A stretch of DNA of 64,000 bases from Candidatus Vogelbacteria bacterium (GCA_016215335.1 JACRKE010000037.1:2924-66923), one strand, 5' to 3'. Counted from the first letter of the stretch, positions 28,976 to 50,020 are shown. Translations and numbers: made by a program. Notes: generated from the letters alone by a model not told the origin.

Positions 28976-29003
28976 GTTGTAGGTGGTAGGTTATAGGTTG
29001 TAG
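28972..29003. repeat. TAGGTTG heptamer array (reverse complement of CAACCTA), about 4.5 units
   Basis: Begins with the TAG stop of 28367..28975. Confidence 0.8.
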
Positions 29004-29076
29004 AACATACGGGCACATCAATACACAAGAGCAAACACAGTGAGCGTAGTATAATAAAATCAATCTTAGATTTAAA

Positions 29077-29484: not shown

Positions 29485-29566
29485 TTACGAATACAGATTT
29501 ATGATTTAGGAATAAATGTACAGCTCTTAAATCTTAAATCTAATCTCCTAAATCCACCTAAAACAA

Positions 29567-30223
29567 ATGGCCGACGCAAAACAAACGAGATTAACGCAGG
29601 ATTTTGTACCTATCGAGGAGGTGCGTGATGGAATTGCCTTGCTCAAAGACGGTACAATGTGCCTTATATTGATGGCATCCTCACTCAACTTCGCCCTCAA
29701 GTCTTCAGACGAGCAGCAAGCGATCCTGCTCCAATTCCAAAACTTTTTAAACTCTCTTGACTTCAGCGTGCAATTTTACGTTCAGTCAAGAAAACTCGAC
29801 ATCAGACCATATTTAGCGACTCTTGAGGATCGTTTGGCTCTGCAGACCAACGACCTTATCAAGATTCAGATTAAGGAATACATTGGATTTATTAAAAACT
29901 TCACCGAAAACACAAGTATCATGACCAAAAGTTTTTTCTTGGTTATTCCGTATACGCCTGCCATGCTCAACGTAAAACAAAGCAAAGGCATACTGTCACA
30001 GTTCTTCGGAAAAGGTTCGACTAAAGAACAGGACGATCTGAAAAAGTTAACCTTCGAGGAGAACCGTACACAACTTGAACAAAGAGCGAGCGTGGTAGAA
30101 CAGGGACTCGCGAGAACAGGAGTGAGGACCATCCCTCTCGGCACAGAGGAGCTCGTGGAACTTTATTACAAAATATTCAATCCTGGCGAACTCGAGAAGC
30201 CGATCGCCAACAGAATACAATAA
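29567..30223 (+). CDS. VirB4-like N-terminal domain encoded as a separate ORF
   Basis: 218 aa; the stop at 30221-30223 is followed 4 nt later by the ATG of the ATPase ORF in another frame; combined length 836 aa equals a full-length VirB4. Confidence 0.4.
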   Translation: MADAKQTRLTQDFVPIEEVRDGIALLKDGTMCLILMASSLNFALKSSDEQQAILLQFQNFLNSLDFSVQFYVQSRKLDIRPYLATLEDRLALQTNDLIKIQIKEYIGFIKNFTENTSIMTKSFFLVIPYTPAMLNVKQSKGILSQFFGKGSTKEQDDLKKLTFEENRTQLEQRASVVEQGLARTGVRTIPLGTEELVELYYKIFNPGELEKPIANRIQ

Positions 30224-30227
30224 ACAT

Positions 30228-32084
30228 ATGGCACTATTCGGATTCTTGGGCAAAAAAAATACAGAGAGCGAAAAAGCAAGCGAGCCGACGACCGCGCCTA
30301 TTCTCCCGCAGCAGATTTATGAGGCGGGCCTGCTTGATCTTAAAGACGTCATCGCTCCTTCCGCTCTCAAAATCACGCCTCAAGAGCTCAATTTGGGAGA
30401 GAAAATCGCCAGAACATTTTTCGTAATTTCATACCCGAGGTTTCTTTCTGAAAATTGGTTCTCGCCAATTATCAACTTAGACAAAATTTTCGACGTATCC
30501 ATTCTGGTACACCCCATAGACACGGCTGATGTCTTGCACAAACTGCAGAAAAAGGTGGCGCAAGTGGAAAGCCAGATAGCCCTAAGAGCAGAGAAAGGTA
30601 TGGTCCGGGATCCTGTTCTTGATGTCGCCTTTCAAGACATCGAACAGTTGCGAGATCAGCTCCAGCAATCGAGAGAGCATATTTTCGATGTCGGTCTTTA
30701 CATCACAATTTACGCAGACACAATAGAAGAGCTAAACAAAACCGAGTCCGAGGTTAAATCTATCCTCGAGGCCAAATTAGTCTACATCAAGCCCGCGCTC
30801 TTCCAGCAAGAAGAAGGCTTCTCGACCGTAATGCCAATTGCAACCGACAAACTATCAGTAAACTCAAAGCTTAATTCATCACCGCTCTCAAGTCTTTTTC
30901 CATTCATCTCATTCGACTTGTCTTCTGATAAAGGTATTCTTTACGGCATCAACAGGCACAACTCGGGTCTTGTTTTATTTGACAGATTCTCTTTGGAGAA
31001 TTATAACTCGGTCGTATTCGCTAAGGCTGGATCGGGTAAGAGCTATCTCACAAAACTCGAGATTCTCCGCACACTAATGTTCGATACGGACGTCATTGTT
31101 ATAGATCCAGAGCGCGAGTACGAATACTTAGCCGAAGCTGCGGGTGGACGTTACTTTAACATTTCACTTACTTCAGAAAACCATATAAATCCGTTTGATC
31201 TACCTCCTGTGGGAGAAGGGGAAACTGCTGCTGACGTGCTTCGTTCAAACATTATTAACCTTGTTGGACTATTTCGTCTCATGCTTGGAGGGCTCACTCC
31301 GGAAGAAGATTCTATTATTGACTCTGCTGTTACTGAAACCTACGCCTTAAAAGACATCACTCCGGAAGCCGATTTCACAGGCAAAGAACCTCCGCTCCTT
31401 TCTGATATGGAACTTGTGCTTGCCGGCATGGAAGGAGGAGCGTCGCTCGCACAAAGAATGCTCAAGTATACTCAAGGTACGTGGGCGGGATTCATTAATC
31501 GCCCAACAAACGTAGACATCAACAAAAAGTTCGTAGTGTTTTCTATCCGCGATATGGAAGAAGAACTGAAGCCGGTCGCAATGTACATAGTCATGCACAA
31601 TATCTGGAACTCTGTGCGCAAAGAGCTGAAGAAGAGACTGCTTGTGGTGGACGAGGCGTGGTTTATGATGAAATCGCAAGATACCGCGTCCTTCCTATAC
31701 GGACTTGCCAAACGAGGCCGTAAATATTTCCTCGGGGTGGCTACGATCACCCAAGACGTGGAAGACTTCCTTAAATCTCCTTACGGAATTCCAATCATTA
31801 CGAACTCTTCTATTCAGGTGTTAATGAAGCAATCACCGGCATCCATTGATATTGTTCAGAAGACATTCAACCTGACAGAGGAGGAGAAATATCTGCTCCT
31901 TGAATCGGCGGTCGGAGAGGGGATCTTCTTCGCTGGGATGAAGCATGTGGCGATCAAAGTTATCGCGTCATACACCGAAGACCAGATCATTACGTCGGAC
32001 CCATCACAACTCCTGTCGATAAGAAAAGCGAAAGCTGAGTTGAAGATGGTGGAGGGTGAAGTCGGGCAGGGAACCGTAAATTAG
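30228..32084 (+). CDS. VirB4/TrbE/CagE-like type IV secretion ATPase (C-terminal ATPase part)
   Basis: Walker A AKAGSGKSYLTK, Walker B LLVVDEAWFMM, conserved VirB4 C-terminal motifs (GVATITQDVEDF). Confidence 0.75.
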   Translation: MALFGFLGKKNTESEKASEPTTAPILPQQIYEAGLLDLKDVIAPSALKITPQELNLGEKIARTFFVISYPRFLSENWFSPIINLDKIFDVSILVHPIDTADVLHKLQKKVAQVESQIALRAEKGMVRDPVLDVAFQDIEQLRDQLQQSREHIFDVGLYITIYADTIEELNKTESEVKSILEAKLVYIKPALFQQEEGFSTVMPIATDKLSVNSKLNSSPLSSLFPFISFDLSSDKGILYGINRHNSGLVLFDRFSLENYNSVVFAKAGSGKSYLTKLEILRTLMFDTDVIVIDPEREYEYLAEAAGGRYFNISLTSENHINPFDLPPVGEGETAADVLRSNIINLVGLFRLMLGGLTPEEDSIIDSAVTETYALKDITPEADFTGKEPPLLSDMELVLAGMEGGASLAQRMLKYTQGTWAGFINRPTNVDINKKFVVFSIRDMEEELKPVAMYIVMHNIWNSVRKELKKRLLVVDEAWFMMKSQDTASFLYGLAKRGRKYFLGVATITQDVEDFLKSPYGIPIITNSSIQVLMKQSPASIDIVQKTFNLTEEEKYLLLESAVGEGIFFAGMKHVAIKVIASYTEDQIITSDPSQLLSIRKAKAELKMVEGEVGQGTVN

Positions 32085-32110
32085 GGGGACAGAAAATACA
32101 CATTGGAAAC

Positions 32111-32168
32111 TTGAAACTGGAAGTTAGAAACTGGAATGGTACATTATTCAAGTTTCCATATTCCAGTT
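32111..32168 (+). repeat. cassette-boundary repeat copy A (AAACTGGAAGTTAGAAACTGGAATGGTACATTATTCAAG)
   Basis: ~40-nt unit sharing ~85% identity with copy B; lies 27 nt after the VirB4 stop. Confidence 0.7.
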
Positions 32169-32188
32169 ACCAGATTCTAAACAAAAAA

Positions 32189-32626
32189 ATGGCGAGCCAA
32201 GAGTCCGTAAAACTAGAGAAAAGAATCGAGGTCAGGTGGCCTCTTGTTTTCCTCGCCGCAATTATTTTCGATGGGATAAAGCTTTTACTGCTCGCCCTAG
32301 ATTTGATCGGCTTGCTTGGAGCGGGGTCAGCGGTGAACAGTATTTTGAGCTCAATTTCGGGCTGGATTATTTGGACTCTTTTGAAGTCGGGAGGCGCTCC
32401 AAATCCATGGAAAGATATCCAGAGTTCATTCATTTCAGGCATAATCCCGTTCTGGCACTACATAGGCCAATCGTGGATTGTGAGAAGCGCAAGGCTTCTC
32501 AAGAAATACAAGAAAATGAATGCCGAGTTTGATAAAAAGCGAGCGGAAGAGCTGAACAATCTTATAGCAGAGATAAACAGAGAATCTGCAGAAGCCTTGA
32601 GTTCACCTGAACCCCAAATAGCATAA
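32189..32626 (+). CDS. small membrane protein
   Basis: First ATG (MASQESVKLEK...). The upstream part of track ORF 32111.. is a TTG-initiated read-through of a repeat element. Two TM helices, then a charged C-terminus. Confidence 0.4.
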   Translation: MASQESVKLEKRIEVRWPLVFLAAIIFDGIKLLLLALDLIGLLGAGSAVNSILSSISGWIIWTLLKSGGAPNPWKDIQSSFISGIIPFWHYIGQSWIVRSARLLKKYKKMNAEFDKKRAEELNNLIAEINRESAEALSSPEPQIA

Positions 32627-32628
32627 CC

Positions 32629-33657
32629 ATGTTTCAAATTCAAAACCTAAAAAAATATCTGCCCGGAATATTACTTATAGCGGTGATATTGTTTGCCCTT
32701 CCGGAAAACAGTTGGGCGATAACACAATATTCAATCAAAGGAGATGTTTCCGTGGAAGCAGTACCCGAAAATCCCATTCCAAATTCAAGCGTTAAATTCA
32801 GCGTTACAGACGGTTCAACCGAGTACGAAAATTCAATATACCAGTGGACGCTCGATGGAAAAACTATCCTGAAGGGGCTCGGCCAGAAATCAGTGACTTT
32901 TGCCACCGGACGAGCGGGCAAAGTCATGCAACTTTCGCTCGAACTGCTGACCCCGAGGGGAGAGCTCGTGCAAAAAAAGTTCAGTATAAATCCCGCAAGC
33001 GTTTCAATTGTTTGGGAGACAGATAGTTACACTCCGGACTTCTACGACGGCAAGCCGTTGCCGACGGAAGGTTCCAACGTGCGTTTTATCGCTGTGCCCG
33101 AAATGTACGAGCCGAACGGCAGAAAACTCACGCCAAGCGAACTATACTTTGAATGGAGTCATGAATTCGAAAAAGATTCAGCCATGTCAGGCTACAACAA
33201 AGATGTTTACCCCTACGAGTTTTTAAACACTCTGCGTGAAGATAATTTCTCGGTCAGAGTGAGGAACTTGGATGGCAGTATCGTGGCCGATACCGCGACA
33301 TATCTTGAAGCCATAGATCCGGAAATGTACTTCTACGAGGACAGTCCTCTCCGCGGCACTATATTCAGTAGAGCGGTGAGCGGGGAGTACAATATGGGTT
33401 CGCGAGAAATTACACTCCGCGCAGAACCATATTTTCTGCCGCTCGATAACAAGAGCAGATTGGTGAATGGAATCTTCGACTGGGAGATCGACGGCAAGTT
33501 AGCCACTCCAAGCTCTGGAGACAGGTCTGCGATTACTCTCAGACAAGACAAGGCGGGCAGTGGTAGTGCTGATCTCTCGGCCAAAGTGACAACGGGAACA
33601 GTCGACGTGTCGGCAAATCTTACTGTAAACTTCAGCAAGGGAAGCGTTAGATTTTGA
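32629..33657 (+). CDS. exported protein (signal peptide)
   Basis: 342 aa; N-terminal signal (LLIAVILFALPENSWA); beta-rich composition. Confidence 0.4.
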   Translation: MFQIQNLKKYLPGILLIAVILFALPENSWAITQYSIKGDVSVEAVPENPIPNSSVKFSVTDGSTEYENSIYQWTLDGKTILKGLGQKSVTFATGRAGKVMQLSLELLTPRGELVQKKFSINPASVSIVWETDSYTPDFYDGKPLPTEGSNVRFIAVPEMYEPNGRKLTPSELYFEWSHEFEKDSAMSGYNKDVYPYEFLNTLREDNFSVRVRNLDGSIVADTATYLEAIDPEMYFYEDSPLRGTIFSRAVSGEYNMGSREITLRAEPYFLPLDNKSRLVNGIFDWEIDGKLATPSSGDRSAITLRQDKAGSGSADLSAKVTTGTVDVSANLTVNFSKGSVRF

Positions 33658-34565
33658 TCTATATGAACAGCAAAAAACATCTAAAAATTACAGGACTTAT
33701 AGTGATATTACTCTTTTCTCTTTCTATTTTTACTACAAGCTCATACGCGCTTCAGAACCCGGAAGGTCTCTCCGACAGCTCGGGCAATTCAGGAGCAAAT
33801 CTCCTCGAACCGAGCGTCGAAACAGTGCTTGGCTTCAGCTTTAATAGTTCTTTTGAATCTTTCGCTCTCAAAACATACCAGTGGCTTTTCTGGCTTGCGG
33901 AACTGCTGGCGGTCATAATGCTCGCAATGTATGGCATAGCCTATGTTTGGGGCGCTTTTGGCAGTGAGGCACTAATCAATGAATATAGAGGATACATTAA
34001 AGACATTTTAATCGGCGGCACAATACTGCTTTTAAGCTATCTCATACTAAATACAATCAATCCCAAACTTCTAACAAGTAAACTTTCCATTGAATGCATA
34101 GCAGCGAACGGCTGCAAGGGAATGACGGGGGGTGGGGGAAATAATGATGATTTGAATGTTGCGAGAGACACAACAGAGGCTAATCCGCCACAACGTTTTG
34201 TTCCACCAGTAGACAGAGGGACCGGAGATTTAATTACTGCAATGCGAACAAGTGGTATAGCGGTGAATGGAGACGTAACAAACATAACAAGTACGACAGT
34301 AGGAGGACTTAACGTATTGAACGGAGATATTACAGGAGATTTAACTGACTCGCGAGTCACTGGCACAACTCTCGATTATCGTGGGTTTGTCATCGGGGCT
34401 GACGGAAACCAAACAGTTATTTTAGCCCCGACAGAGAGATTAAATCTTTACTATAACACCTTGCCACGTTCGGGAATCACCGACTCTAGAAGTACTCCCC
34501 ACGGACTGCTTACATTTGATGAAACAAGTGGAAACTACGAATATCGTAATTCTCCAAGATTTTAA
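33654..34565 (+). CDS. membrane protein with signal peptide and two further hydrophobic helices (pilin/VirB2-like topology) plus G/T/N-rich C-terminal extension
   Basis: 303 aa; overlaps the previous stop by 4 nt; topology only. Confidence 0.35.
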   Translation: MIYMNSKKHLKITGLIVILLFSLSIFTTSSYALQNPEGLSDSSGNSGANLLEPSVETVLGFSFNSSFESFALKTYQWLFWLAELLAVIMLAMYGIAYVWGAFGSEALINEYRGYIKDILIGGTILLLSYLILNTINPKLLTSKLSIECIAANGCKGMTGGGGNNDDLNVARDTTEANPPQRFVPPVDRGTGDLITAMRTSGIAVNGDVTNITSTTVGGLNVLNGDITGDLTDSRVTGTTLDYRGFVIGADGNQTVILAPTERLNLYYNTLPRSGITDSRSTPHGLLTFDETSGNYEYRNSPRF

Positions 34566-34579
34566 CTACCCTGCATTCC

Positions 34580-35905
34580 ATGACCTACAAAAGTTTAATT
34601 ATTATAGTTCTAATCTTCCTCTCCATCGGAGCTGGGGCTGGTTGGTATTTCTTTCGGCCCGCCGCGCCGGCTCCGGACGGCGCGGCGGGTGATGCTGTTT
34701 CTGACACAGGCTATTTTCCATCCACGGGTAACTCTTCCGGCGATTCGTCGGGCAAAGGCTCGGGAGGAGCCACAATAATTAAACCTTCGGATCAGGCGGA
34801 CGGGGGTGATAATCTTAACGCAAATGTGAATGTAAATGTGCCGGTTATGCGCCAACTGGTATCGTCACCAGTTTCTGGAGCCACGATACTTACTCACGGG
34901 AGTTCAACATACGTAAGATACATCGAACAAAATACGGGACATATGAGTGAGATCGCTGCGACCGAAAAAGTCTCGAACAAAATCACAAACACAACTATTC
35001 CAAAGACTTACAAAATATTCTGGGGGCCTAAGGGAACTGCCGTCGTTGCAAAGATGTTTGGAGATGAAGGACGCATGAACATTTTGTTCGCCACAACCAC
35101 AATACCTCTTAAGGCCACCACCACGGAAGAAACCTATCGGACATTCACACCGGACTTCGGCTCTTCTATCGGAACACTAGATGGTCTTCTTCTCCCATCG
35201 ATAATAAAAAGTATCGCAGTCTCGCCGGACTCAAACAAACTTTTTTTCCTACTCAAAACCGAAAGCGGGACTGTGGGGGTAATTTCGAATTTCAAAGATG
35301 CCGTTTCAGCTAAAGCACAGATACCCATATTCCAGTCCAGATTGTCAGAGTGGCTTTCGGATTGGCCGGGGAGTGACATTATATTACTCAATTCAAGGCC
35401 GTCTTCAGGAATAACAGGCCTGACTTATTTATTAAACGCGAAAACCAAAAGAACCGAAAAAATTCTTGAAGGCATGGGTCTCACCGCAAAAGCAAGTCCG
35501 GATACCAAGAAGGTAATATTTGCCACCGGCGAGGGAAGCGGACTAAAAACTTTTCTCTATAACATCAATACAAACAAGAAGTTGGCATTTCCACTTCAAA
35601 CCTTGCCGGAAAAATGCACTTTTAGTTTCGACTCGCGTTATGCGTATTGTGGCGTACCCGCACAATTGCCTCTGGGAGAATACCCTGATGACTGGTACAA
35701 AGGCAAAATTCAGTTCAATGACGCAATATGGAAAGTGGACCTGGACAATTTAATCTCCACCGTAATTTCTCCTACCAACACATCACGTACAAGCAGAATT
35801 ATAGACGCAATAGAGTTGAAAACAGATCAAACAGGCGATCTGCTTATCTTTAAGAACAAAATAGATGACACGCTGTGGGCACTCACGCTGGAAACTGGAA
35901 GATAG
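34580..35905 (+). CDS. membrane-anchored exported protein
   Basis: 441 aa, N-terminal TM (LIIIVLIFLSIGAGAGWYFF), Gly/Ser-rich linker; stop codon lies inside repeat copy B. Confidence 0.4.
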   Translation: MTYKSLIIIVLIFLSIGAGAGWYFFRPAAPAPDGAAGDAVSDTGYFPSTGNSSGDSSGKGSGGATIIKPSDQADGGDNLNANVNVNVPVMRQLVSSPVSGATILTHGSSTYVRYIEQNTGHMSEIAATEKVSNKITNTTIPKTYKIFWGPKGTAVVAKMFGDEGRMNILFATTTIPLKATTTEETYRTFTPDFGSSIGTLDGLLLPSIIKSIAVSPDSNKLFFLLKTESGTVGVISNFKDAVSAKAQIPIFQSRLSEWLSDWPGSDIILLNSRPSSGITGLTYLLNAKTKRTEKILEGMGLTAKASPDTKKVIFATGEGSGLKTFLYNINTNKKLAFPLQTLPEKCTFSFDSRYAYCGVPAQLPLGEYPDDWYKGKIQFNDAIWKVDLDNLISTVISPTNTSRTSRIIDAIELKTDQTGDLLIFKNKIDDTLWALTLETGR

Positions 35906-35944
35906 AAACTAGAATGGCGCATTATTCTAGACTACAGATTCAAG
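35887..35944 (+). repeat. cassette-boundary repeat copy B (GAAACTGGAAGATAGAAACTAGAATGGCGCATTATTCTAG)
   Basis: Overlaps the stop codon of 34580..35905; contains a 7-bp hairpin CTAGAAT/ATTCTAG; 47 nt upstream of the MNT start. Confidence 0.7.
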
Positions 35945-35990
35945 TCTATGGCTCGTTCGGCTAGTTCAACCAATCAATTCGTGCTAACAT

Positions 35991-36287
35991 TTGGCTATGG
36001 AAGACATAAAACAATTAGAACAAAGTACGGATATATTTAAAAAATACGGCGCTAAATACGCCGCTCTTTTCGGTTCTCGCGCTCGGGGAGAGGCGGGGCC
36101 CGACAGTGATTTCGATATTTTGGTAAAACTAGAAAAACCAATAGGGCTGTTCTCATTTTCAAATTTCCAATTGGAACTTGAAGATAGACTTAAACGAAAA
36201 GTAGACCTAGTTTCAGAGGGAGGGTTGAATTCTAAAATTCGCGAATTTGTTATGCGCGACCTTAAAATTTTTTATGGACACAGATAA
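35991..36287 (+). CDS. minimal nucleotidyltransferase (MNT) antitoxin-like protein
   Basis: GSRARGEAGPDSDFDILV (GS-x9-DxD pol-beta-type NTase motif), 98 aa. Confidence 0.7.
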   Translation: MAMEDIKQLEQSTDIFKKYGAKYAALFGSRARGEAGPDSDFDILVKLEKPIGLFSFSNFQLELEDRLKRKVDLVSEGGLNSKIREFVMRDLKIFYGHR

Positions 36288-36612
36288 AGTTTACATCGAA
36301 CATATCATTGAGGCCATTGATGCGATACGGGATTATTCGAAGGATTTAACTCGTGACACGCTGAAGGACGCTGAACACCGAATGGCAAAAGACGCAATCG
36401 TTAGAGAGTTAGAAATAATAGGTGAAGCCTCTAAAAACCTGTCTGATGAATTTAAAGAAAAAGAGGAGGGAACCCCATGGCGAGCAGTTGTTGCCATGAG
36501 AAACAACTTAATCCACGAATATTTTGGGATTGACCTTGAAGACGTGTGGGACACAGTCCAGAACGATTTGCCGAAGCTCAAAATCTCACTCAAAAAATAT
36601 CTCGTTAATTAG
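36274..36612 (+). CDS. HepT-like (DUF86) HEPN toxin
   Basis: R-x4-HEY motif (RNNLIHEYF) near the C-terminus; 14-nt overlap with the MNT gene; classic HepT/MNT pair. Confidence 0.7.
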   Translation: MDTDKVYIEHIIEAIDAIRDYSKDLTRDTLKDAEHRMAKDAIVRELEIIGEASKNLSDEFKEKEEGTPWRAVVAMRNNLIHEYFGIDLEDVWDTVQNDLPKLKISLKKYLVN

Positions 36613-36625
36613 ACGCTACGCTTGG

Positions 36626-36683
36626 CGTTGAATCTTGAAGCTAGAATAGTGCATTATTCCAGTATCTAGTTTCTATTCTCCAA
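36626..36683 (+). repeat. cassette-boundary repeat copy C (CTTGAAGCTAGAATAGTGCATTATTCCAG)
   Basis: 14 nt after the HepT stop; shares the core AGAATRGYGCATTATTCYAG with A and B. Confidence 0.65.
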
Positions 36684-37428
36684 CTTCCTGTTTCCCGTCT
36701 ACACTTAACTTCTCCGCCTTCTTCTTGACGTAAAGTTCATGGGCTACTCCGACCGCACTATTAACTACCCAATATATTGAGACTGCAGCAGGTAATGTCA
36801 TCCCTATAAAGGTAATCATGACCGGAAGGAAATACACCATTTGAGTTTGCATGCTCTTCTGAAAGCTGCCGGAAAAACTCGCCGGTCCAGCTTCGACCAC
36901 CTTACTTTTGTCTAGCTTAGGGATAGAGAGCTTGGCTTGGAAAAACTGCGCGACGCCTGCGAGAATGGCAATTACAATGCTTGATTTTGTAACATCGACA
37001 AACCCAAGGAACATAAGGTTGAGCGAAGGGGGGAATGGAGTAAAAGAGTAAAGTTCGGCGGGAACAATCGCGAGGCCCTGAACAACCCAAAACAGTGCGT
37101 AAATAATTGGAATCTGGATAATCAGCGCGCCAAAGCCAGAAAATGGATTGATCCCGTGTTCCTTATAGAGCGCCATAATTTTCGCCCCTTGTTCTTGTGT
37201 GTTTCCTTTGTGTTTTACACGGATTGCCTCTATCTCCGGTTCTATCTCTTTCATTCTTCGCTGTGATTTCACGGACTTGTGCATAAGAGGGAGAGTAACA
37301 AGCCTGATTACAACTGTAACGATTATTATGGCCACACCTACGTCATTCGTGGGAAGAACTGCCGCTAGCCCGACCAAAAGGTTGTAGATAGGCTGGTAGA
37401 AAATTGTGTGAAATAGGAATGAGAACAT
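36673..37428 (-). CDS. yidC: membrane protein insertase YidC (short form)
   Basis: YidC/Oxa1 core with a 5-TM pattern, in the conserved rpmH-rnpA-yidC context. Confidence 0.8.
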   Translation of the reverse strand: MFSFLFHTIFYQPIYNLLVGLAAVLPTNDVGVAIIIVTVVIRLVTLPLMHKSVKSQRRMKEIEPEIEAIRVKHKGNTQEQGAKIMALYKEHGINPFSGFGALIIQIPIIYALFWVVQGLAIVPAELYSFTPFPPSLNLMFLGFVDVTKSSIVIAILAGVAQFFQAKLSIPKLDKSKVVEAGPASFSGSFQKSMQTQMVYFLPVMITFIGMTLPAAVSIYWVVNSAVGVAHELYVKKKAEKLSVDGKQEVGE

Positions 37429-37497
37429 GAGCTAATTAGTATATAGTAAGACCAATCAGTATATAGTATATAGTATATAGTATATAGTATATAGGGG
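37429..37497 (-). promoter_or_regulatory. same upstream motif before yidC, containing a (GTATATA)x5 tandem expansion
   Basis: rc reads TCTCCCCTATATAC(TATATAC)x4...TACTATATACTAATTAGCTC-ATG. Confidence 0.5.
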
Positions 37498-37508
37498 AGA
37501 AAATTCTT

Positions 37509-37865
37509 CTACGGTAAACCAAGTTTTGTGAGCACTCCCTCAATGTCTCGCTTAAGTTCGTCAAAGGTAGCCAAGACGGCGGGTTTTTTGAATATAAACA
37601 TAATGGTATGGCCGTCTTTCAGGTTCGGTAAAAGTCTGGCTACAATCGCACGGGCGCGACGTTTAATAAGATTTCGTCCCACCGCTGTCTTTTCTACAGA
37701 ACTACTGACAACAAAAGCGAACTTGCTTCCTTCGTTTTCTGTCTTCGTACTCTTGACCAAGAAGAGGGGGGAGTGAGTAGTTTGAAAAACTTTTTTCTTC
37801 GCCGGATCAGAACTAAAAAAAACATCGAGCTCATTCCTTCCCGCCCGATTAACCTTTGGTAACAT
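37509..37865 (-). CDS. rnpA: ribonuclease P protein component
   Basis: 118 aa, basic; RNR-like motif region (GRNLIKRRARAIVAR); position between rpmH and yidC. Confidence 0.7.
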   Translation of the reverse strand: MLPKVNRAGRNELDVFFSSDPAKKKVFQTTHSPLFLVKSTKTENEGSKFAFVVSSSVEKTAVGRNLIKRRARAIVARLLPNLKDGHTIMFIFKKPAVLATFDELKRDIEGVLTKLGLP

Positions 37866-37877
37866 AAAAGCGCTGTT

Positions 37878-38012
37878 CTAAACGGCTAATTTTTTGCGGC
37901 CCTTGCGTCTCCTTCGAAGGAGTGTCGCGCGTCCGGCTGCAGTTTTTTGACGCTCGAGAAAACCGTGTGTTGTTTTTCGTTTTTTTCGCTTCGGATTGTA
38001 TGTAAACGACAT
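37878..38012 (-). CDS. rpmH: 50S ribosomal protein L34
   Basis: Not in the ORF track (44 aa). Minus-strand translation [44 protein letters not shown] matches the L34 consensus; divergent from dnaA. Confidence 0.8.
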
Positions 38013-38175
38013 AAAGTTAGTGTATACTATTTGCACTCTGAAGACAAATAGTTTTTATTTCAAAAGTTTTTCGTAAAAAAAGTTAGACACAGGCAATCCA
38101 CAGACTTATGCACACATTTAGGTAGTTTTCCACAGGGGATAGAGGAGTATACTAAGAAAATTCTAACCATAAACT
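38013..38175. promoter_or_regulatory. rpmH-dnaA divergent spacer with DnaA-box-like 9-mers (candidate oriC segment / dnaA promoter)
   Basis: CAATCCACA 38094-38102, TTATGCACA 38106-38114, TTTTCCACA 38126-38134 (consensus TTATCCACA). Confidence 0.5.
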
Positions 38176-39549
38176 ATGCTAGAAAATAAAAAACTTTGGG
38201 ATGACGTGATTTCACAGATAGAGCTCGGAATTTCAAAGGCGAACTTTAGCACTTGGTTTAAAAACACTTATATTTCAAAGCAGGAAGATGGCATGGTGTT
38301 CCTCTCAGTGCCAAACGACTTTGTTAAAGAGTGGATTTGCAACAAATACCACAAATTTATTCTAAAGATTCTAAGGGATACCAACCCCGGTATACGCGGC
38401 GTCGAATATATAATTCACAAAGAGGACGGTTCGGCGAAACGAGTTGATATGGACGCTGAGGCAGCAGAAAATATCTTCGCCAATCAGCTCAAAATGCAAG
38501 AGATCTATATAAACAAGGAGGACAACCTGAATCCTCGCTACACTTTCGACACCTTAATCATTGGATCATTTAACGAATTGGCTCACGCGGCGGCACAAAG
38601 CGTAGTGCGCAAACCGGGCATGTCTTACAATCCCCTATTTATATACGGAGGAACGGGTCTTGGCAAAACTCATCTCATCCAGTCGATCGGAAATGAGATC
38701 AAGAAGGCTGATCCATCCAAAAAAATCTTCTACATGGGTGCCGAGAAATACGCCGTTGATCTCGTTAATTCCATAAACACAAACAAAATGCATGTGTTCA
38801 AAGACAAATACAAAAGATACGACGTCCTAATTCTCGACGATATTCAGTTCATAGCAGGCAAGGAGCGCACCCAAGAAGAGTTTTTCCATCTGTTCAACAG
38901 TTACCACGACAACAACAAACAGATTGTATTCTCCTCCGATAAACCCCCAAAGCATATAAACGAACTCGAAGAGAGACTTCGCTCAAGGTTTGAGGGTGGG
39001 ATGATTGTAGACATTTCAAGGCCGGAATTCGAGGCAAGACTCGCAATATTGAATGCCAAATTAAAACAAGTTGGGGTTTCGCTTGCCGACGAAGTGGTGC
39101 ACTATGTAGCAACATCCATCCAAGACAGCATACGTGAACTTGAAGGCTCGCTTAACTCGATTGTCTGCCAATCACAACTCAAAAAACGGCCACTGACCTT
39201 AAACGAAGTCAAAACATTAATAAAAAACAATGTTAAACCCCAAAGAACCATCTCAACAAAGGATGTAATTCAGACGGTCGCTGGCTTTTACAATATCGAG
39301 GAGAAAATTCTTTATGAAAAGAGCCGGCGGAAGGAGGTTGTAAAGCCGAGGCAAATTGTTATGTATATTTTACGAGAGGATTTCAACACCTCCTATCCAT
39401 ATATCGGCCAAAAGCTGGGCGGACGCGACCACACTACGGTCATGCATGCATACGAGAAGATCAAGCGTGAGTTAAAGACAGATAGATTACTCGAGCAAGA
39501 AATGGAACAGATAAAAAATATGCTCTACAACGAATACAGTACGGTATGA
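38176..39549 (+). CDS. dnaA: chromosomal replication initiator DnaA
   Basis: AAA+ Walker A GGTGLGKTHL, Walker B VLILDDIQF, sensor and box motifs, C-terminal DNA-binding domain (HTTVMHA). Confidence 0.9.
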   Translation: MLENKKLWDDVISQIELGISKANFSTWFKNTYISKQEDGMVFLSVPNDFVKEWICNKYHKFILKILRDTNPGIRGVEYIIHKEDGSAKRVDMDAEAAENIFANQLKMQEIYINKEDNLNPRYTFDTLIIGSFNELAHAAAQSVVRKPGMSYNPLFIYGGTGLGKTHLIQSIGNEIKKADPSKKIFYMGAEKYAVDLVNSINTNKMHVFKDKYKRYDVLILDDIQFIAGKERTQEEFFHLFNSYHDNNKQIVFSSDKPPKHINELEERLRSRFEGGMIVDISRPEFEARLAILNAKLKQVGVSLADEVVHYVATSIQDSIRELEGSLNSIVCQSQLKKRPLTLNEVKTLIKNNVKPQRTISTKDVIQTVAGFYNIEEKILYEKSRRKEVVKPRQIVMYILREDFNTSYPYIGQKLGGRDHTTVMHAYEKIKRELKTDRLLEQEMEQIKNMLYNEYSTV

Positions 39550-39857
39550 ACAGTATAAGTGTATAGTATAAATGCGTATACCTGTGGAAAAGATGTTAGT
39601 AGCACATCGAAATGTGAGGAAAAATCACTGGAGTAACGGGGGAGACGAAGACGGACGAGTGGGATAAAAATTACAGGTGGAATGCGACTGGGGATACAGT
39701 CTTTATAAATAGAGGTTTTATGAATAAGTTATACACATTGGTGATTAGAGAAAGAACGGCTATATATAAAGGTAGAACAAACTAAGTGAAGTGGTTATCA
39801 ACTTATCAACAACTTTAATAATAACAGTAAGCTAATTATTTAAATAGTACAGACACT
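39550..39857. promoter_or_regulatory. dnaA-dnaN spacer with DnaA-box-like 9-mers and AT-rich stretches (candidate oriC)
   Basis: TGTGGAAAA 39583-39591 (rc of TTTTCCACA), TTATACACA 39729-39737, tandem TTATCAACT/TTATCAACA 39795-39812; AT-rich runs tttataaatagaggttttatgaataag and taataataacagtaagctaattatttaaatag. Confidence 0.5.
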
Positions 39858-40973
39858 ATGAAAGTCGAATGCCTAAAAGAAAAACTGAGGACGGCTGCCA
39901 CAAACGCGGAAAGAGTAACCGGCAAGAATTTAGCGTTGCCGATTCTCGGTTCAATTCTTATTGAGGCCAAAGAAAAGACTCTCCTGATCCGTGCCACAAA
40001 TCTTGAGGTGGGAGTTGAATTTGAAATACCTTCAAAAATTTTAGAGAAAGGCAAAGTGGCTGTTTCGGGCTCACTCCTTAATAGTTTTCTTGGGCTGGTT
40101 GGTGACGGTGATGTTATCAAGATTGAGACCGTGAACGAAAACATGGTTCTTACAACCAGATCAAGCTCGTCCATGATTAAGTGTTTACCCTCTGATGACT
40201 TTCCAACTATTCCAAAGCTTGGCGACTCTAATGTCCTAGAATTGGACGCCGTAAAATTGGTAAACGGTCTCCGGTCGGTGGCATACGCGGCTTCGCTTTC
40301 AGACATGAAGCCGGAAATTTCGAGCGTCTACTTGTACGGAGAAGAGGACGAAATTGTTTTTGCGGCGACTGACTCGTTTCGCCTTGCCGAAAAAAGAATC
40401 AAACTTAAAAGCAGAGAACAGAAGGGAGATCAAATATCAATTATCATTCCTATTAAAAACGCGCTCGAAATCATACGTGTGCTCGAAGGCTTGAACGACT
40501 CTGTGTCTATCTACTACACAAAGAACCAGGTGTCGTTTTCGTCCGGTACGGGCGGAATCTACATCACTTCGCGACTGGTGAATGGTATATTCCCGAATTA
40601 CGGGCAGATCATTTCCAAGGATAAAAAAAGCGAAGTGGTCGTATCCAAGAAGGAACTGCTTAACGCTTTGAAACTCGCTACGGTTTTTACCGATAAATTC
40701 AATCAAGTGACATTCCGCATAATACCCGGGGAGGCGCTGTTCGAAGTAAGCTCGAGGAACAGTGACACCGGGGAGAACACAACCAAAGTTGAGGCTACTG
40801 TTGAAGGCGAAGATATCACTGTGAATTTCAACAACAAATATATTCTGGATTGTTTCAGCTCTATAGAAGAAAACACCCTTGGAATCGCGTTTAACGGTGC
40901 CCAGAGACCGATGGTGATAAGGGGGGTCGGGGATACATCATTTTTCTATCTTGTAATGCCTCTGAACCGATAG
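39858..40973 (+). CDS. dnaN: DNA polymerase III beta sliding clamp
   Basis: 371 aa, three-domain clamp pattern, typical N-terminus (MKVECLKEKL...NLALPILGSILIEA), directly downstream of dnaA. Confidence 0.9.
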   Translation: MKVECLKEKLRTAATNAERVTGKNLALPILGSILIEAKEKTLLIRATNLEVGVEFEIPSKILEKGKVAVSGSLLNSFLGLVGDGDVIKIETVNENMVLTTRSSSSMIKCLPSDDFPTIPKLGDSNVLELDAVKLVNGLRSVAYAASLSDMKPEISSVYLYGEEDEIVFAATDSFRLAEKRIKLKSREQKGDQISIIIPIKNALEIIRVLEGLNDSVSIYYTKNQVSFSSGTGGIYITSRLVNGIFPNYGQIISKDKKSEVVVSKKELLNALKLATVFTDKFNQVTFRIIPGEALFEVSSRNSDTGENTTKVEATVEGEDITVNFNNKYILDCFSSIEENTLGIAFNGAQRPMVIRGVGDTSFFYLVMPLNR

Positions 40974-40979
40974 TAAGCA

Positions 40980-41237
40980 ATGCTAAAGATTGCAGATTTA
41001 ATAAATAGATACACTAAACTTACGGTTCCTGATGGAATTTTACGCGCGAAAGTTTCAGAACTCATTATGCGGGAAATAGGTTTTGATATCCCCGTAGACA
41101 AAATAACAGTTAGAAGAAAAATTGCATTTGTAAATTGCTCACCAGCCATAAAATGTGAATTACAGATTAGAAAAGAGAAGATTCTCTCTAGTCTTATGGA
41201 CGAGTTAGGTAAAGATGCCCCGATAGACATCTCGTGA
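40980..41237 (+). CDS. small protein downstream of dnaN (DUF721/DciA-like candidate)
   Basis: 85 aa; a DUF721 gene is often found at this position; assignment by context only. Confidence 0.3.
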   Translation: MLKIADLINRYTKLTVPDGILRAKVSELIMREIGFDIPVDKITVRRKIAFVNCSPAIKCELQIRKEKILSSLMDELGKDAPIDIS

Positions 41238-41267
41238 TTCACTTGGAAGCTCGGCTTCCAAGTGAAT
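41237..41267. repeat. REP-like palindrome copy (ATTCACTTGGAAGC-TCGG-CTTCCAAGTGAAT)
   Basis: Perfect 13-bp stem; fills exactly the gap between the convergent stop codons of 40980..41237 and PBP1A. Confidence 0.8.
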
Positions 41268-43891
41268 TAATTCAAGGAAATAATTATCGCCTGAGTTGCT
41301 TCACCTTTATTCCCGATAGAATCTGTAACTACTGCTTTCAAAACATTGTTGGAGCCAATGAGACCGATGTCTTGCGGTACAAAAGTGAAACTGTACGGTT
41401 TTATGGTGCTTGATCCTATGTAGATGTTATTGAAATAAAATGAAGCTTGTGTGGTGGGGTACTGGCTCGTGGCCGTTACACTAATCGCTATTCGATCGTA
41501 TGTCCTAAACACGCTCGAAGTTCCTGGAAGATCGAATACAACTGTGGGTCTAGTTGATCTTGAGTGCGAAGTATCTACTGTGGTTGGTATCACAGAGCTG
41601 TCGCTATCAACGTATCCTTGTGCCGCAGCCCAAATTCTTACCGGTGTTTCCCATAGATTAAATTGCGGGTCGTTGCCCGGGTTTGAGGGTTTCGGTCCTA
41701 GCGGGTCATTTTTGTTTACCCAATATAAAATGGAGTGTACGCTTGGCACTACTCTAGGCTCTCTATAATCCTCGGGAGTTTCGGCTGTAGCAAGAGCTCC
41801 TGAAACCTTGTCTATTACATATTCTTGGCCGCCTTGCCATACTCCCCTTAGCACAGGTTTGATGTTTGTCGGAGTGGGTTCCGGTTTAGGAAAAGTTTCT
41901 TTGGGAAGAGAAGGCAGTAAATCTTGCATGAGAGAATTCCAGACAGGGGCCACCACCATTCCCGCCACTTTTTTGTCGATCGGCTTGTTGTCATTGTTTC
42001 CTGCCCAGATACCCACTGCTATATTCGGTGTATATCCCATAATCCAAACGTCTCTGTAATTATTGGTGGTTCCAGTCTTTGCAGCTACTGGTCGGTCGGG
42101 TATATAGAGTAGGGAATTGCTTCCAAACGCCGGAGTACGCGCTTCGTTGTCTGTTAAAATGTCTGTGATCTGTCGTGCTACCTGTTCAGAAATTGCCCTT
42201 TCCGGTTCTGATTGCCACTGCTCAAGAGTATTACCGTCTCTATCTTCTACCTTTATTATACTTGCCTCAGGATTTCTCATTCCATCGTTTGCAAACACAC
42301 TGTAGGCTTCTGTGAGATCAAGTAGTGACACTTCGCCTCCTCCAAGTACCAGCGTGAGGCCGTATCTAGCTGGGTCATCTAATCCGCGTATCCCCATTTT
42401 CTTTGCTGTCGCTATCGAATCTTTTATCCCGGCGAGGTATAGGGCCTTGATGGCGGGAACGTTTACTGACTGGGCGAGTGCATTCCTTATCGTCATTGGA
42501 CCTGTGTATTTGAGGTCATAGTTTTCAGGAGAGTAACATCTACTAGGGTTTGTGTTGCCTATTGGCCTCGAATCGTAAGTGCAGTTTGCGTTGAATTCGG
42601 TCCTTAAGTTAAAGAGAATGGTGTCTGGGGTGTAACCCTTGGCGAATGCCGTGGCGTATACGAATGGTTTGAAAGTAGAACCCGGTTGTCTGTGAGCGAT
42701 TGCGACGTTGAAATTTCCCTCGCCACCCTCTTCGAAGTAATCACGTGAGCCGACCATAACCAGTATCTGTCCTGTTTTTGGATCGACACCGACGATGCTC
42801 ATATTTTTTGCGTTGAATTTGGCCTCAAGTTCCGGTCCGAATTTGCGTGCGTTAGCTTCGGCTTTCTGTTGCATCTCCCAATCAAGCGAGGTGGTAACTT
42901 TAAGTCCGCCGTTGTCTACAACATCTTTGCCGTACTTTTCTTCAAGATACATTTTCACATACATTACAAAATGCGGGGCTTTAATTTTTCGGTTTGCAAC
43001 CGGTGCAAACTGGACATCTTCCGCTTTAGCCTGTTCTTCTTCGTCTTTAGTGATAAAACCAAGCTCTTTCATTCTACGCAATACTGTTTTCTGCCTGTTC
43101 CGGAGTGCATCTATGTGAGTACCATAGGGTGAATAGTAACTTGGGGCTTGCGGCATGGCGGCCAGATATGCTGCTTCAGCTATAGTTACGTCGTTCGCGT
43201 TTTTGCCGAAATAAGCGAGACTGGCCTCCTCAACGCCATATAAGCTTCCACCATACGGACTTTCGTTTAAATAAAGTGCGAGAATCTGGTCTTTGCCGAT
43301 AACACGCTCGAGTTTTATGGCGAGAATCATTTCAACAATTTTTCTGGATACGGACTTTTGTTGAGTGAGGAGCGAGTTTTTTATTACCTGCTGAGTAATA
43401 GTAGAACCGCCTTGGCTGAACCTGCCAGATGTTAAGTTGACCCAAGTGGCGCGGGCTAACGAGAGTGGCTCTATCCCTATGTGATGATAAAAGTTCGAAT
43501 CTTCAATGGCTACAGTCGCGTTTTTTATATTTCTTGAAATCTGGTCACCCGAGACAACTGTTCGTTGTATGTCTTGGTGCGCGTCAAAAAGCAAAATTTT
43601 TCCGGTTTTGTCATAAATCTTCGTCGACTGCGTAATTAAACGTTCATTGAACGAATTAAAGTCTGGGATAGTGAGGGTGGAGACCCATATCATAAACAAG
43701 CCACTCAAAATAAGGATGAACGCAAGCAGGGCGAAAGCGAGTTCTTTCAGATGATGCCGTGTTATTTTCTTTGTTCTGCGCCATAGTCGTTTGGACCAGG
43801 GTACATTATGTGTTGTGTGCGAAACGAAGTCTTTCATAAACTTATTAAAGAATGCTAGCATGATTTTCGGGCTTCTGATAGGTTTGAGCAA
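41267..43891 (-). CDS. class A penicillin-binding protein (PBP1A-type transglycosylase/transpeptidase) with C-terminal beta-rich extension
   Basis: N-terminal TM; GT51 motifs (EDSNFYHH, GGSTITQQV); transpeptidase SxxK (STFKPF), SVN and KTGTT motifs; ~200-aa C-terminal extension. Confidence 0.85.
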   Translation of the reverse strand: MLKPIRSPKIMLAFFNKFMKDFVSHTTHNVPWSKRLWRRTKKITRHHLKELAFALLAFILILSGLFMIWVSTLTIPDFNSFNERLITQSTKIYDKTGKILLFDAHQDIQRTVVSGDQISRNIKNATVAIEDSNFYHHIGIEPLSLARATWVNLTSGRFSQGGSTITQQVIKNSLLTQQKSVSRKIVEMILAIKLERVIGKDQILALYLNESPYGGSLYGVEEASLAYFGKNANDVTIAEAAYLAAMPQAPSYYSPYGTHIDALRNRQKTVLRRMKELGFITKDEEEQAKAEDVQFAPVANRKIKAPHFVMYVKMYLEEKYGKDVVDNGGLKVTTSLDWEMQQKAEANARKFGPELEAKFNAKNMSIVGVDPKTGQILVMVGSRDYFEEGGEGNFNVAIAHRQPGSTFKPFVYATAFAKGYTPDTILFNLRTEFNANCTYDSRPIGNTNPSRCYSPENYDLKYTGPMTIRNALAQSVNVPAIKALYLAGIKDSIATAKKMGIRGLDDPARYGLTLVLGGGEVSLLDLTEAYSVFANDGMRNPEASIIKVEDRDGNTLEQWQSEPERAISEQVARQITDILTDNEARTPAFGSNSLLYIPDRPVAAKTGTTNNYRDVWIMGYTPNIAVGIWAGNNDNKPIDKKVAGMVVAPVWNSLMQDLLPSLPKETFPKPEPTPTNIKPVLRGVWQGGQEYVIDKVSGALATAETPEDYREPRVVPSVHSILYWVNKNDPLGPKPSNPGNDPQFNLWETPVRIWAAAQGYVDSDSSVIPTTVDTSHSRSTRPTVVFDLPGTSSVFRTYDRIAISVTATSQYPTTQASFYFNNIYIGSSTIKPYSFTFVPQDIGLIGSNNVLKAVVTDSIGNKGEATQAIIISLN

Positions 43892-46163: not shown

Positions 46164-46216
46164 GGACTTATTCTACAACCTACAACCTACAACCTACAAC
46201 CTACAACCTACAACCC
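46129..46216. repeat. heptamer tandem array: (NNNTAGT)x4 followed by (CTACAAC)x6
   Basis: Directly visible; lies in the yebC-ruvC spacer and the annotated ruvC 5' end. Confidence 0.85.
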
Positions 46217-46224
46217 GTCTTGGT

Positions 46225-46758: not shown

Positions 46759-46874
46759 GGTTTGTATATGGTATATAGTACATAGTATATAGGAAAACTC
46801 AATATTTTATTCAGCGAGGATTAATGGGTTGGAGTTCACTATATACTATGTACAATTTACTATATACTTTCCCC

Positions 46875-49980: not shown

Positions 49981-50020
49981 ACGAATTAGTATATAGTAAA
50001 TAGCATATGGTATGTAGGGG
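49981..50020 (-). promoter_or_regulatory. same upstream motif before pilB
   Basis: rc reads TTCCCCTACATACCATATGCTATTTACTATATACTAATTCGT-ATG. Confidence 0.5.

What the first reader, a model, noticed from the sequence alone, without database searches (positions are those of the whole stretch)
35887..36683. HepT/MNT toxin-antitoxin module bracketed by ~40-nt direct repeats that also mark another gene block (cassette-like organisation)
Copy B (35887-35944, overlapping the stop of the upstream gene) and copy C (36626-36683) are direct repeats sharing the core AGAATRGYGCATTATTCYAG with an internal hairpin. They flank exactly the MNT-HepT pair.

Copy A (32111-32168), ~85% identical to B, follows the VirB4 stop. 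A and B therefore also bracket the four exported-protein genes 32189..35905.

Each repeat carries a TAG, and in one case supplies the host gene's stop.

This looks like repeat-delimited cassettes (integron/attC-like, MITE-like or recombination-site-delimited modules). It is not the canonical attC R/L core.
Basis: seen in the sequence. Interest (0 to 1): 0.65.

Follow-up and report, generated by a model that had tools for sequence, protein, structure and literature searches.

The report
Toxin-antitoxin pair enclosed by heptamer-repeat stem
An acquired toxin-antitoxin gene pair in an uncultivated groundwater bacterium (Candidatus Vogelbacteria) sits inside a ~55-base-pair stem built from 7-base repeats, the same layout that small selfish genes have in ribosomal-RNA "intervening sequences", here found between the genes of an ordinary operon.

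Summary
The three repeats are real. A and B are 81% identical over 58 nt. C is weaker, and its orientation is ambiguous because the element is a palindrome.

The window is the dnaA/yidC origin region of a Candidatus Vogelbacteria MAG. A, B and C form one family of imperfect palindromes built from degenerate heptamers (GAANNTN). Other heptamer families (TATAGTA, CTACAAC) occupy many other spacers.

- **A–B block is not a cassette.** In 79 related Paceibacteria loci the order VirB4–exported genes–yidC–dnaA is conserved.
- **MNT–HepT is an acquired insertion.** No related locus carries it.
- **B and C are complementary halves.** The B×C duplex is −59 kcal/mol, against −34 for B×B and −40 for C×C. 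It encloses the toxin-antitoxin pair.
- **Relatives show the same layout.** Eighteen 23S-rRNA-IVS-protein genes, plus GIY-YIG, DUF559, GxxExxY and Y1-transposase genes, sit inside similar heptamer stems. Two paralogues in one genome show that arms plus ORF are copied as one unit.
- **A is an empty copy** of the same family.

No integrase and no attC features were found, so this is not an integron. The best reading is an IVS-like or MIC-like stem-enclosed module. RNase III processing of the stem is inferred, not shown. I rate it a new variant of a known kind, of moderate interest.

The parts
32103..32180 (+). Repeat A: an empty (ORF-less) heptamer-array palindrome between the VirB4 stop (32084) and the next gene (32189). 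Left arm is GAAACTT GAAACTG GAAGTTA GAAACTG GAATGGT; the apical core is CTGGAATGGTACATTATTCAAG.
   Evidence: RNA fold -26.2 kcal/mol, z -4.1. TRF reports period 7/14 at 32104-32136 and 32145-32177. Self-complement score 70.
34580..35905 (+). e441: the last conserved exported-protein gene of the T4SS-like operon. Its last 6 codons and its TAG stop lie inside repeat B.
   Evidence: 575 stretches in species-representative genomes encode a relative, of which the best 79 loci were kept. The conserved C-terminus ends before the LETGR* tail.
35887..35946 (+). Repeat B: the left half of the enclosing stem. Heptamers are GAAACTG GAAGATA GAAACTA GAATGGC; the core is CTAGAATGGCGCATTATTCTAG (35909-35930). 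It does not fold well on its own.
   Evidence: Alone z 0.03. B x C duplex -59.2 kcal/mol with 54 pairs.
35997..36287 (+). MNT (MntA-like nucleotidyltransferase antitoxin), with an intact GS...DxD motif.
   Evidence: PF18765 E 9.5e-13 and PF01909 E 1e-11. NCBIfam MntA_antitoxin 48 bits, below the 60-bit cutoff.
36274..36612 (+). HepT (HEPN RNase toxin), with the RNNLIH motif. It overlaps MNT by 14 nt.
   Evidence: PF01934 E 1.6e-27. The nearest homologue is 56% identical.
36626..36697 (+). Repeat C: the right half of the enclosing stem. The core is CTAGAATAGTGCATTATTCCAG (36641-36662). The right arm TAGTTTC TATTCTC CAACTTC CTGTTTC overlaps the last codons and the stop of yidC.
   Evidence: The yidC stop is at 36673-36675.
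36673..37428 (-). yidC, convergent with the operon; its 3' end lies inside C.
   Evidence: PF02096 E 8.9e-46.

Best explanation
**What it is.** A, B and C belong to one genome-specific family of intergenic elements. Each element has two inverted arms made of degenerate tandem heptamers (GAANNTN and its complement) around a small apical core. Such heptamer-array inverted repeats punctuate many spacers in this genome and in a subset of related Paceibacteria.

**Shown here.**
- B and C are not two self-sufficient hairpins and are not att-type direct repeats. They are the two complementary halves of one stem of about 55 bp.
- That stem encloses an acquired MNT-HepT toxin-antitoxin operon, inserted at the convergent junction between the T4SS-like operon and yidC.
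- A is an empty copy of the same element.
- The architecture matches ORF-bearing 23S rRNA intervening sequences (IVS), and matches the stem-enclosed S23p/IVP, GIY-YIG, DUF559, GxxExxY and Y1-transposase genes in relatives.

**Inferred mechanism.**
- The arms are the ends of the unit that gets copied.
- They supply stop codons to the genes they abut.
- In the read-through transcript they form a long dsRNA stem that RNase III can cut, so the inserted module is tolerated inside or beside an essential operon.
- The directly repeated 22-nt core could allow the cargo to be lost by recombination, leaving an A-like solo element.
For: **Acquisition.** Synteny is conserved in 79 loci and none carries MNT/HepT at the junction. 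The gap there is -39 to +200 nt in 20 of the 62 loci measured, including both other Vogelbacteria, or it holds a jag-like gene.

**Stem.**
- B x C duplex is -59.2 kcal/mol (z -9.2), against -27.9 for the two local hairpins combined.
- The MFE fold of RNA 35870-36710 has 55 long-range B:C pairs.
- B x C equals A x A (-59.1) and far exceeds B x B (-33.9) and C x C (-39.5).
- The hybrid of B-left, core and C-right folds like A.

**Class.**
- Period-7 arrays make up 18 of the 40 tandem arrays found in the window, and most of those in several relatives.
- In 10 cases the gaps PrgI|TraC-N or TraC-N|VirB4 are oversized. Eight of them hold one ORF: seven PF05635 and one PF13366. Every one is bracketed by heptamer arms of 22-52 nt.
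- All 18 IVP genes have flank complementarity of at least 11 (median 18.25), against medians of 7-8 for core genes. The window's toxin-antitoxin pair scores 18.0.
- The same e441|yidC junction holds stem-enclosed IVP genes (L058, L062) and a GIY-YIG gene (L038).

**Mobility.** Two IVP paralogues in L058 share DNA only from the left arm to the right arm.

**Precedent.** The Coxiella IVS is a 428-nt selfish element with a 28-bp TIR stem, an S23p ORF and tandem heptameric repeats. RNase III cuts at the first repeat (PMC4990558).
Against: - Only three family members are visible, and no sister strain exists to show an empty site.
- Core genes (PrgI, TraC-N, dnaN) are also flanked by complementary arrays where one family fills successive spacers. 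Enclosure alone therefore does not prove a cassette.
- No RNA data are available, so RNase III cleavage is pure inference, and no rnc gene lies in the window.
- No transposase is tied to this family and no target-site duplication is seen.
- The cargo differs from that of classical IVS elements.
- Three other CPR MNT-HepT loci lack such arms. One (L084) has a 37-nt direct repeat instead.
Confidence: 0.55

Rival explanations
1. Ordinary REP-like or terminator-like hairpins. Each transcription unit ends in a member of a genome-wide heptamer hairpin family. The toxin-antitoxin pair landed by chance between the hairpin of e441 (B) and that of yidC (C). The resemblance among A, B and C reflects local duplication or gene conversion.
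For: - Heptamer palindromes sit at many gene ends.
- Relatives have their own arrays at the A and B positions.
- The L003 junction holds two hairpins in 194 nt.
- Intergenic heptameric SSRs are known elsewhere: Xanthomonas/Nostoc (PMC4692102) and Beggiatoaceae (PMC4679880).
Against: - B alone folds no better than shuffled sequence (z 0.03 as RNA, +0.5 as DNA).
- B x B and C x C are much weaker than B x C.
- No U-tract follows A, B or C, and none was called by the terminator scan.
- The toxin-antitoxin flank score equals that of the IVP elements, and only 5 of 169 core-gene controls reach it.
Confidence: 0.22
2. attL/attR-type direct repeats. A circular MNT-HepT module carrying a copy of the 22-nt core integrated by site-specific or homologous recombination into the apical core of a pre-existing A-like palindrome, duplicating the core.
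For: - The cores of B and C match at 19 of 22 positions in direct orientation. The asymmetric loop (GYRCATT) keeps the same orientation in A, B and C.
- Outer arms pair with each other, and so do inner arms.
- The Wolfebacteria MNT-HepT locus L084 is flanked by a 37-nt direct repeat, 95% identical, that duplicates the 3' end of the upstream gene.
Against: - No integrase or recombinase lies in the 64 kb.
- The core is quasi-palindromic, so its orientation is only weakly defined.
- In relatives the IVP elements need no core duplication.
- This reading is compatible with the main explanation rather than exclusive of it.
Confidence: 0.15
3. An integron-like cassette array with non-canonical attC sites.
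For: Imperfect palindromes follow gene blocks, and toxin-antitoxin cassettes are common in chromosomal integrons (general knowledge, not tested here).
Against: - No IntI is present.
- No paired R/L boxes are present.
- The ssDNA folds of B and C are poor.
- The A-B block is a conserved core operon in 79 loci.
Confidence: 0.02

Closest known systems
ORF-bearing 23S rRNA intervening sequences (IVS) of Coxiella, Leptospira and Xanthomonas (PMC4990558)
   Same: - A selfish element of about 430 nt bounded by terminal inverted repeats that form a long stem.
- A small ORF sits in the loop, in the sense orientation of the host transcript.
- Tandem heptameric repeats lie in the stem region.
- In relatives the ORF belongs to the same Pfam family (PF05635).
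   Different: - These elements sit in spacers of protein-coding operons, not in a 23S rRNA helix.
- In the window the cargo is an MNT-HepT toxin-antitoxin pair (732 nt between the cores).
- RNase III excision has not been demonstrated.
MITEs whose hairpin RNA is cut by RNase III (Neisseria Correia/NEMIS elements, ERIC) and mobile insertion cassettes (MICs: TIR-bounded passenger genes without a transposase). Comparison from general knowledge.
   Same: - TIR-bounded, non-autonomous elements, co-transcribed with their neighbours.
- Empty copies (A) and cargo-bearing copies (B-TA-C) belong to one family.
- Such elements can alter gene 3' ends.
   Different: - The arms are arrays of degenerate heptamers that are specific to each genome.
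- No target-site duplication or cognate transposase was identified.
Intergenic heptameric simple-sequence repeats: cyanobacterial STRR, Xanthomonas GGGAATC and Nostoc GGGGAYT (PMC4692102), Beggiatoaceae TAACTGA (PMC4679880)
   Same: - Tandem 7-nt units over-represented in spacers.
- Sometimes arranged as inverted pairs between genes.
- Length varies between relatives.
   Different: - Here the arrays are systematically paired into stems that enclose small selfish genes.
- Several unrelated heptamer families coexist in one genome.
Type VII HepT/MntA toxin-antitoxin systems
   Same: - Both Pfam domains are present.
- The gene order is MNT then HepT, with overlapping genes.
- The catalytic motifs are intact.
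   Different: - Scores fall below the NCBIfam equivalog cutoffs.
- Activity has not been tested.
- The enclosing stem is not a described feature of these systems.

Membership tests
Integron gene cassette / attC | IntI tyrosine integrase and attI adjacent to the array | tested here: not met
   Pfam scan of about 54 ORFs across the 64 kb finds no integrase. The only recombination-related hits are RuvB, RuvC and one Y1_Tnp at 62812-63453.
Integron gene cassette / attC | Paired R''/R' core sites (RYYYAAC ... GTTRRRY) at the ends of each repeat | tested here: not met
   Reading the sequence: A and B have neither box. C has one GTTGAAT and no inverse partner.
Integron gene cassette / attC | Each repeat folds on its own as an ssDNA hairpin | tested here: not met
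   ssDNA folds: A z -3.0, B z +0.5, C z -1.95.
Integron gene cassette / attC | Units between repeats are variable accessory genes | tested here: not met
   The A-B block (e342, e441) is conserved and syntenic in the 79 related loci. Only MNT-HepT is accessory.
23S rRNA IVS-type selfish element | Terminal inverted repeats forming a long stem that encloses the element | tested here: met
   B x C duplex -59.2 kcal/mol with 54 pairs. 55 long-range pairs appear in the MFE fold of the 841-nt RNA.
23S rRNA IVS-type selfish element | S23p/IVP (PF05635) ORF in the loop | tested here: not met
   The window's cargo is MNT plus HepT. The feature is met for 18 elements in relatives.
23S rRNA IVS-type selfish element | Located in a 23S rRNA helix | tested here: not met
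   The element lies between protein-coding genes. Rfam finds only one tRNA in the window.
23S rRNA IVS-type selfish element | Excised from the transcript by RNase III | not testable with these tools
   No transcript data are available. The stem length and geometry are compatible with an RNase III substrate.
MITE / mobile insertion cassette | Terminal inverted repeats, with several copies in the genome | tested here: met
   55-nt arms, 73% complementary. There are 3 family members in 4.6 kb. In L058, arms plus ORF are duplicated as one unit.
MITE / mobile insertion cassette | Target-site duplication and a cognate transposase | tested here: inconclusive
   No TSD is seen at B/C or at the L058 copies. 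The one Y1 transposase in the window is flanked by a different hairpin family, D4.
Type VII toxin-antitoxin (HepT/MntA) | HEPN Rx4-6H toxin next to a GSx10DxD nucleotidyltransferase | tested here: met
   PF01934 E 1.6e-27. PF18765 and PF01909 are both hit. The motifs RNNLIH and GS...DSDFD are read from the sequence.
Rho-independent terminator | GC-rich hairpin followed by a U-tract | tested here: not met
   None of A, B or C was called by the terminator scan. A is followed by AAACAAAAAAA.

The most novel reading that the evidence does not exclude
Paceibacteria (CPR) carry a class of 'operon intervening sequences'. These are mobile modules bounded by genome-specific heptamer-array inverted repeats. 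They insert into the spacers of essential operons, supply stop codons to the neighbouring genes, and are cut out of the polycistronic RNA by RNase III, as rRNA IVSs are. Their cargo ranges from S23p/IVP and small nucleases to a complete toxin-antitoxin system. A directly repeated apical core would allow reversible loss of the cargo, leaving empty palindromes such as A.
Probability: 0.3. Interest if true: 0.75.

Novelty: new variant of a known kind. Interest (0 to 1): 0.55.

Why it matters
If the reading holds, three things follow.
- It links three poorly understood phenomena: intergenic heptameric repeats, ORF-bearing rRNA intervening sequences, and the scattered "four-helix-bundle", GIY-YIG and toxin-antitoxin mini-genes of CPR genomes. 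All three would belong to one element architecture.
- It offers a concrete, testable explanation for how selfish genes can sit inside compact, essential operons of reduced genomes without breaking them: RNase III processing of an enclosing stem.
- It warns annotators that such repeats can rewrite gene 3' ends, and can appear in frame inside genes.

Tried and rejected
- **Sister strains.** Exact-protein look-ups for yidC and e441 returned only one Logan contig identical to the window. The nearest e441 homologue is 36-41% identical. A strain-level presence/absence test was therefore impossible.
- **More family copies.** A metagenome-wide scan for the 20-nt core gave 63 single hits. That is a number I estimate chance alone could give in a collection of this size, and none shows similarity in the flanks. 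BLAST of A, B and C against all 79 related loci found nothing.
- **Known RNA families.** Rfam at gathering thresholds found only one tRNA.
- **Terminators.** The promoter/terminator scan did not call A, B or C.
- **Toxin-antitoxin pairs elsewhere.** The nearest HepT homologues are at most 56% identical. Their contexts (L082, L083, L084) show no heptamer stems. L084 has a 37-nt direct repeat instead.
- **Integron reading.** Rejected; see the membership test.
- **Split-palindrome test.** The hybrid fold is suggestive, but B-left plus A-right folds equally well. The decisive comparison was the duplex matrix.
- **Enclosure as proof of a cassette.** Rejected as sufficient evidence, because core genes are also flanked by complementary arrays where one family fills neighbouring spacers.

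Full report
**Observation.** The three repeats exist. The repeat finder groups them as one family: A 32110-32167, B 35888-35945 (81% identical to A) and C 36620-36677 (62%). The shared core, allowing up to 3 mismatches, matches 4 times against 0.04 expected by chance. Each element is an imperfect palindrome. A aligns to its own reverse complement (score 70) as well as it aligns to B (72). C aligns to B better in reverse (61) than in direct orientation (46). The arms are arrays of degenerate heptamers (GAAACTG, GAAGATA, GAAACTA and so on); TRF reports period 7/14 for both arms of A. B contains the stop codon of the upstream gene, and C contains the stop of yidC on the other strand.

**Context.** Pfam shows the following gene order:
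- PrgI, a split VirB4/TraC, and four exported proteins without a family;
- MNT and HepT;
- yidC and rnpA on the minus strand;
- dnaA and dnaN.

This is a chromosomal origin region. The 441-aa protein is annotated in NCBI as coming from a Candidatus Vogelbacteria MAG. No integrase or other site-specific recombinase is present among about 54 ORFs. The only transposase-like gene is a Y1 (IS200-like) protein at 62812-63453, flanked by a different perfect hairpin family.

**The repeats are one flavour of a wider class.** Many spacers in the window carry inverted arms built from other heptamers. TATAGTA occurs at 2145-2208, 37454-37503, 46759-46874, 49983-50026 and 60669-60775. CTACAAC occurs at 20374-20507, 28973-29005 and 46127-46217. 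TAAATCT occurs at 29500-29560. Period-7 arrays make up 18 of the 40 tandem arrays found in the window. They also dominate in some relatives: L003 14 of 17, L050 13 of 25, L058 11 of 24 and L007 10 of 23. Most lie outside the genes I could map by homology. Intergenic heptameric repeats are known from Xanthomonas, Nostoc and Beggiatoaceae but are poorly understood (PMC4692102, PMC4679880).

**Comparative test of the cassette idea.** I retrieved 79 loci encoding e441 homologues from species-representative genomes and mapped the window's proteins onto them. The order g819–g202–PrgI–TraC-N–VirB4–e342–e441, then yidC–rnpA on the opposite strand, then dnaA–dnaN, is conserved across Paceibacteria. The A-B block is therefore core, not a cassette. 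Several relatives carry their own heptamer family at both the A and B positions: TTAGGCN in L007, GGGCRTA in L003 and GAACGTN in L024. No locus has MNT/HepT. The e441-to-yidC gap is -39 to +200 nt in 20 of the 62 loci measured, including both other Vogelbacteria, or it holds a jag-like gene. The toxin-antitoxin pair is a lineage-specific insertion.

**B and C are halves of one stem.**
- As RNA, A folds at -26.2 kcal/mol (z -4.1), B shows no excess (z 0.03) and C is moderate (z -2.15).
- The B×C duplex is -59.2 kcal/mol (z -9.2 against shuffled C), compared with -27.9 for the two local hairpins together.
- The MFE fold of the whole 841-nt RNA has 55 long-range B:C pairs enclosing MNT-HepT.
- In the duplex matrix, B×C (-59.2) equals A×A (-59.1) and far exceeds B×B (-33.9) and C×C (-39.5).
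- A hybrid of B-left, core and C-right folds like A (-32 to -34 kcal/mol, z -4.5 to -5.5).
- As ssDNA, B and C fold poorly, which argues against an attC-like site.

**The same architecture in relatives.** The gaps PrgI|TraC-N (median 80 nt) and TraC-N|VirB4 (median 46 nt) are at least 300 nt in ten cases. Eight of these hold one ORF on the operon strand: seven are PF05635 (23S rRNA intervening-sequence protein) and one is PF13366. All eight are tightly bracketed by genome-specific heptamer arms of 22-52 nt, 74-91% complementary. In L003 the arms belong to the same family as an empty palindrome in the neighbouring spacer.

The e441|yidC/jag junction itself holds stem-enclosed IVP genes in L058 and L062 and a GIY-YIG gene in L038. 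A scan of all loci adds DUF559, another GIY-YIG and a Y1 transposase.

As a control, I scored complementarity between the upstream flank and the reverse complement of the downstream flank. All 18 IVP genes score at least 11 (median 18.25). Core genes have medians of 7-8, and only 5 of 169 reach 18. The window's toxin-antitoxin pair scores 18.0. Seventeen of the 18 IVP genes are on the operon strand.

Two IVP paralogues in L058 share DNA exactly from the left arm to the right arm and nothing beyond it. Arms plus ORF (about 435 nt) are therefore the unit that is copied.

**Link to known biology.** The Coxiella 23S rRNA IVS is a 428-nt selfish element with a 28-bp terminal-inverted-repeat stem and an ORF of the same family. 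It carries tandem heptameric repeats whose number varies between strains, and RNase III cuts at the first repeat (PMC4990558). The Paceibacteria elements look like the same kind of element placed in mRNA spacers. The window's copy carries a toxin-antitoxin pair instead.

**Mechanism: shown and inferred.**
- *Shown:* the pair is acquired; the stem geometry; the family relation to the empty copy A; the parallel with IVP elements; the copied unit in L058.
- *Inferred:*
  - the stem is an RNase III substrate that insulates the insertion;
  - the arms supply stops to neighbouring genes;
  - the directly repeated 22-nt core (19 of 22 identical, same loop orientation in A, B and C) allows cargo loss that leaves an A-like element.

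On the stop-supplying idea, TAG/CTA occurs in 38 of 93 heptamer units against 21.6 ± 4 expected. AGG and GAA are also enriched, so this is only suggestive.

**Caveats.**
- Where one family fills successive spacers, core genes are also flanked by complementary arrays.
- Only three family members are visible.
- No sister strain is available.
- Other CPR MNT-HepT loci lack such arms. One has a 37-nt direct repeat that duplicates the 3' end of the upstream gene.

**Verdict.** The cassette reading is partly right for the toxin-antitoxin pair, wrong for the A-B block, and wrong as an integron. I rate it a new variant of a known kind (IVS-like or MIC-like stem-enclosed module) and put interest at 0.55.

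Noticed in passing
window 62771-63507; also 41237-41275: A 213-aa Y1 (IS200-like) transposase gene at 62812-63453 (PF01797, E 4.9e-9; weak NCBIfam REP-associated tyrosine transposase hit) is flanked by perfect hairpins CACTTGGAAGC...GCTTCCAAGTG with 23-nt arms, 100% complementary. A third copy lies inside its 3' part and a fourth 21 kb away. This looks like a RAYT/REP or IS200 arrangement in a CPR genome. A second case is L040 2881-3345.
   Followed up: partly
window 18616-18646, 20477-20507, 20774-20818: (CTACAAC)n heptamer arrays lie in frame inside coding regions. In the UvrD-like helicase they encode ..PTTTYNLQPTT.., and in RsmA/KsgA ..NYNLLTTTYNL... This is reminiscent of the Rickettsia palindromic elements that insert in frame into genes.
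   Followed up: partly
window 2145-2208, 37454-37503, 46759-46874, 49983-50026, 60669-60775: A second heptamer family, (TATAGTA)n, is mostly arranged as inverted arms with 36-46-nt loops. One single-arm array sits between yidC and rnpA. The only other public contig of this sequence ends at that array, which may reflect an assembly break.
   Followed up: partly
L058 2527-2955 and 8723-9146: Two copies of an IVP element in one genome, about 86% identical, lie at two different spacers of the same locus. Similarity starts and stops exactly at the heptamer arms, and the arms are better conserved than the ORF.
   Followed up: yes
L084 3584-3620 and 4332-4368: A Wolfebacteria MNT-HepT pair is flanked by a 37-nt direct repeat, 95% identical. 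The repeat duplicates the last ~12 codons of the upstream methyltransferase gene. This is a different insertion signature from the window's.
   Followed up: partly
window 5890-6179: A 290-nt spacer contains an extremely stable nested palindrome (about -150 kcal/mol) with inner arms 6004-6033/6052-6081 that are 97% complementary. A 24-nt stretch is 96% identical to L003 7184-7207, in the other Vogelbacteria genome.
   Followed up: no
heptamer arrays in window plus 79 loci: TAG/CTA is enriched in heptamer units: 38 of 93 arrays against 21.6 ± 4 expected from shuffled units. TAA and TGA are not enriched. With a 7-nt period, three repeats place a TAG in every reading frame.
   Followed up: partly
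L003, L008, L018, L042, L050, L016, L077: Core genes (PrgI, TraC-N, dnaN) are each flanked by complementary arrays of one heptamer family in successive spacers. Single cistrons could therefore be enclosed by long-range stems, much as 16S and 23S rRNA are in rRNA operons.
   Followed up: no
window 36673-40973: This is the replication-origin neighbourhood: yidC-rnpA on the minus strand, then dnaA-dnaN, with 310-nt and 308-nt spacers on either side of dnaA. The jag-like gene found between e441 and yidC in about 40 relatives is missing here and in the two other Vogelbacteria.
   Followed up: no
window 29567-32084: The VirB4/TraC ATPase is split into a 218-aa N-terminal ORF and a 618-aa ORF. The split is conserved in nearly all related loci.
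   Followed up: no
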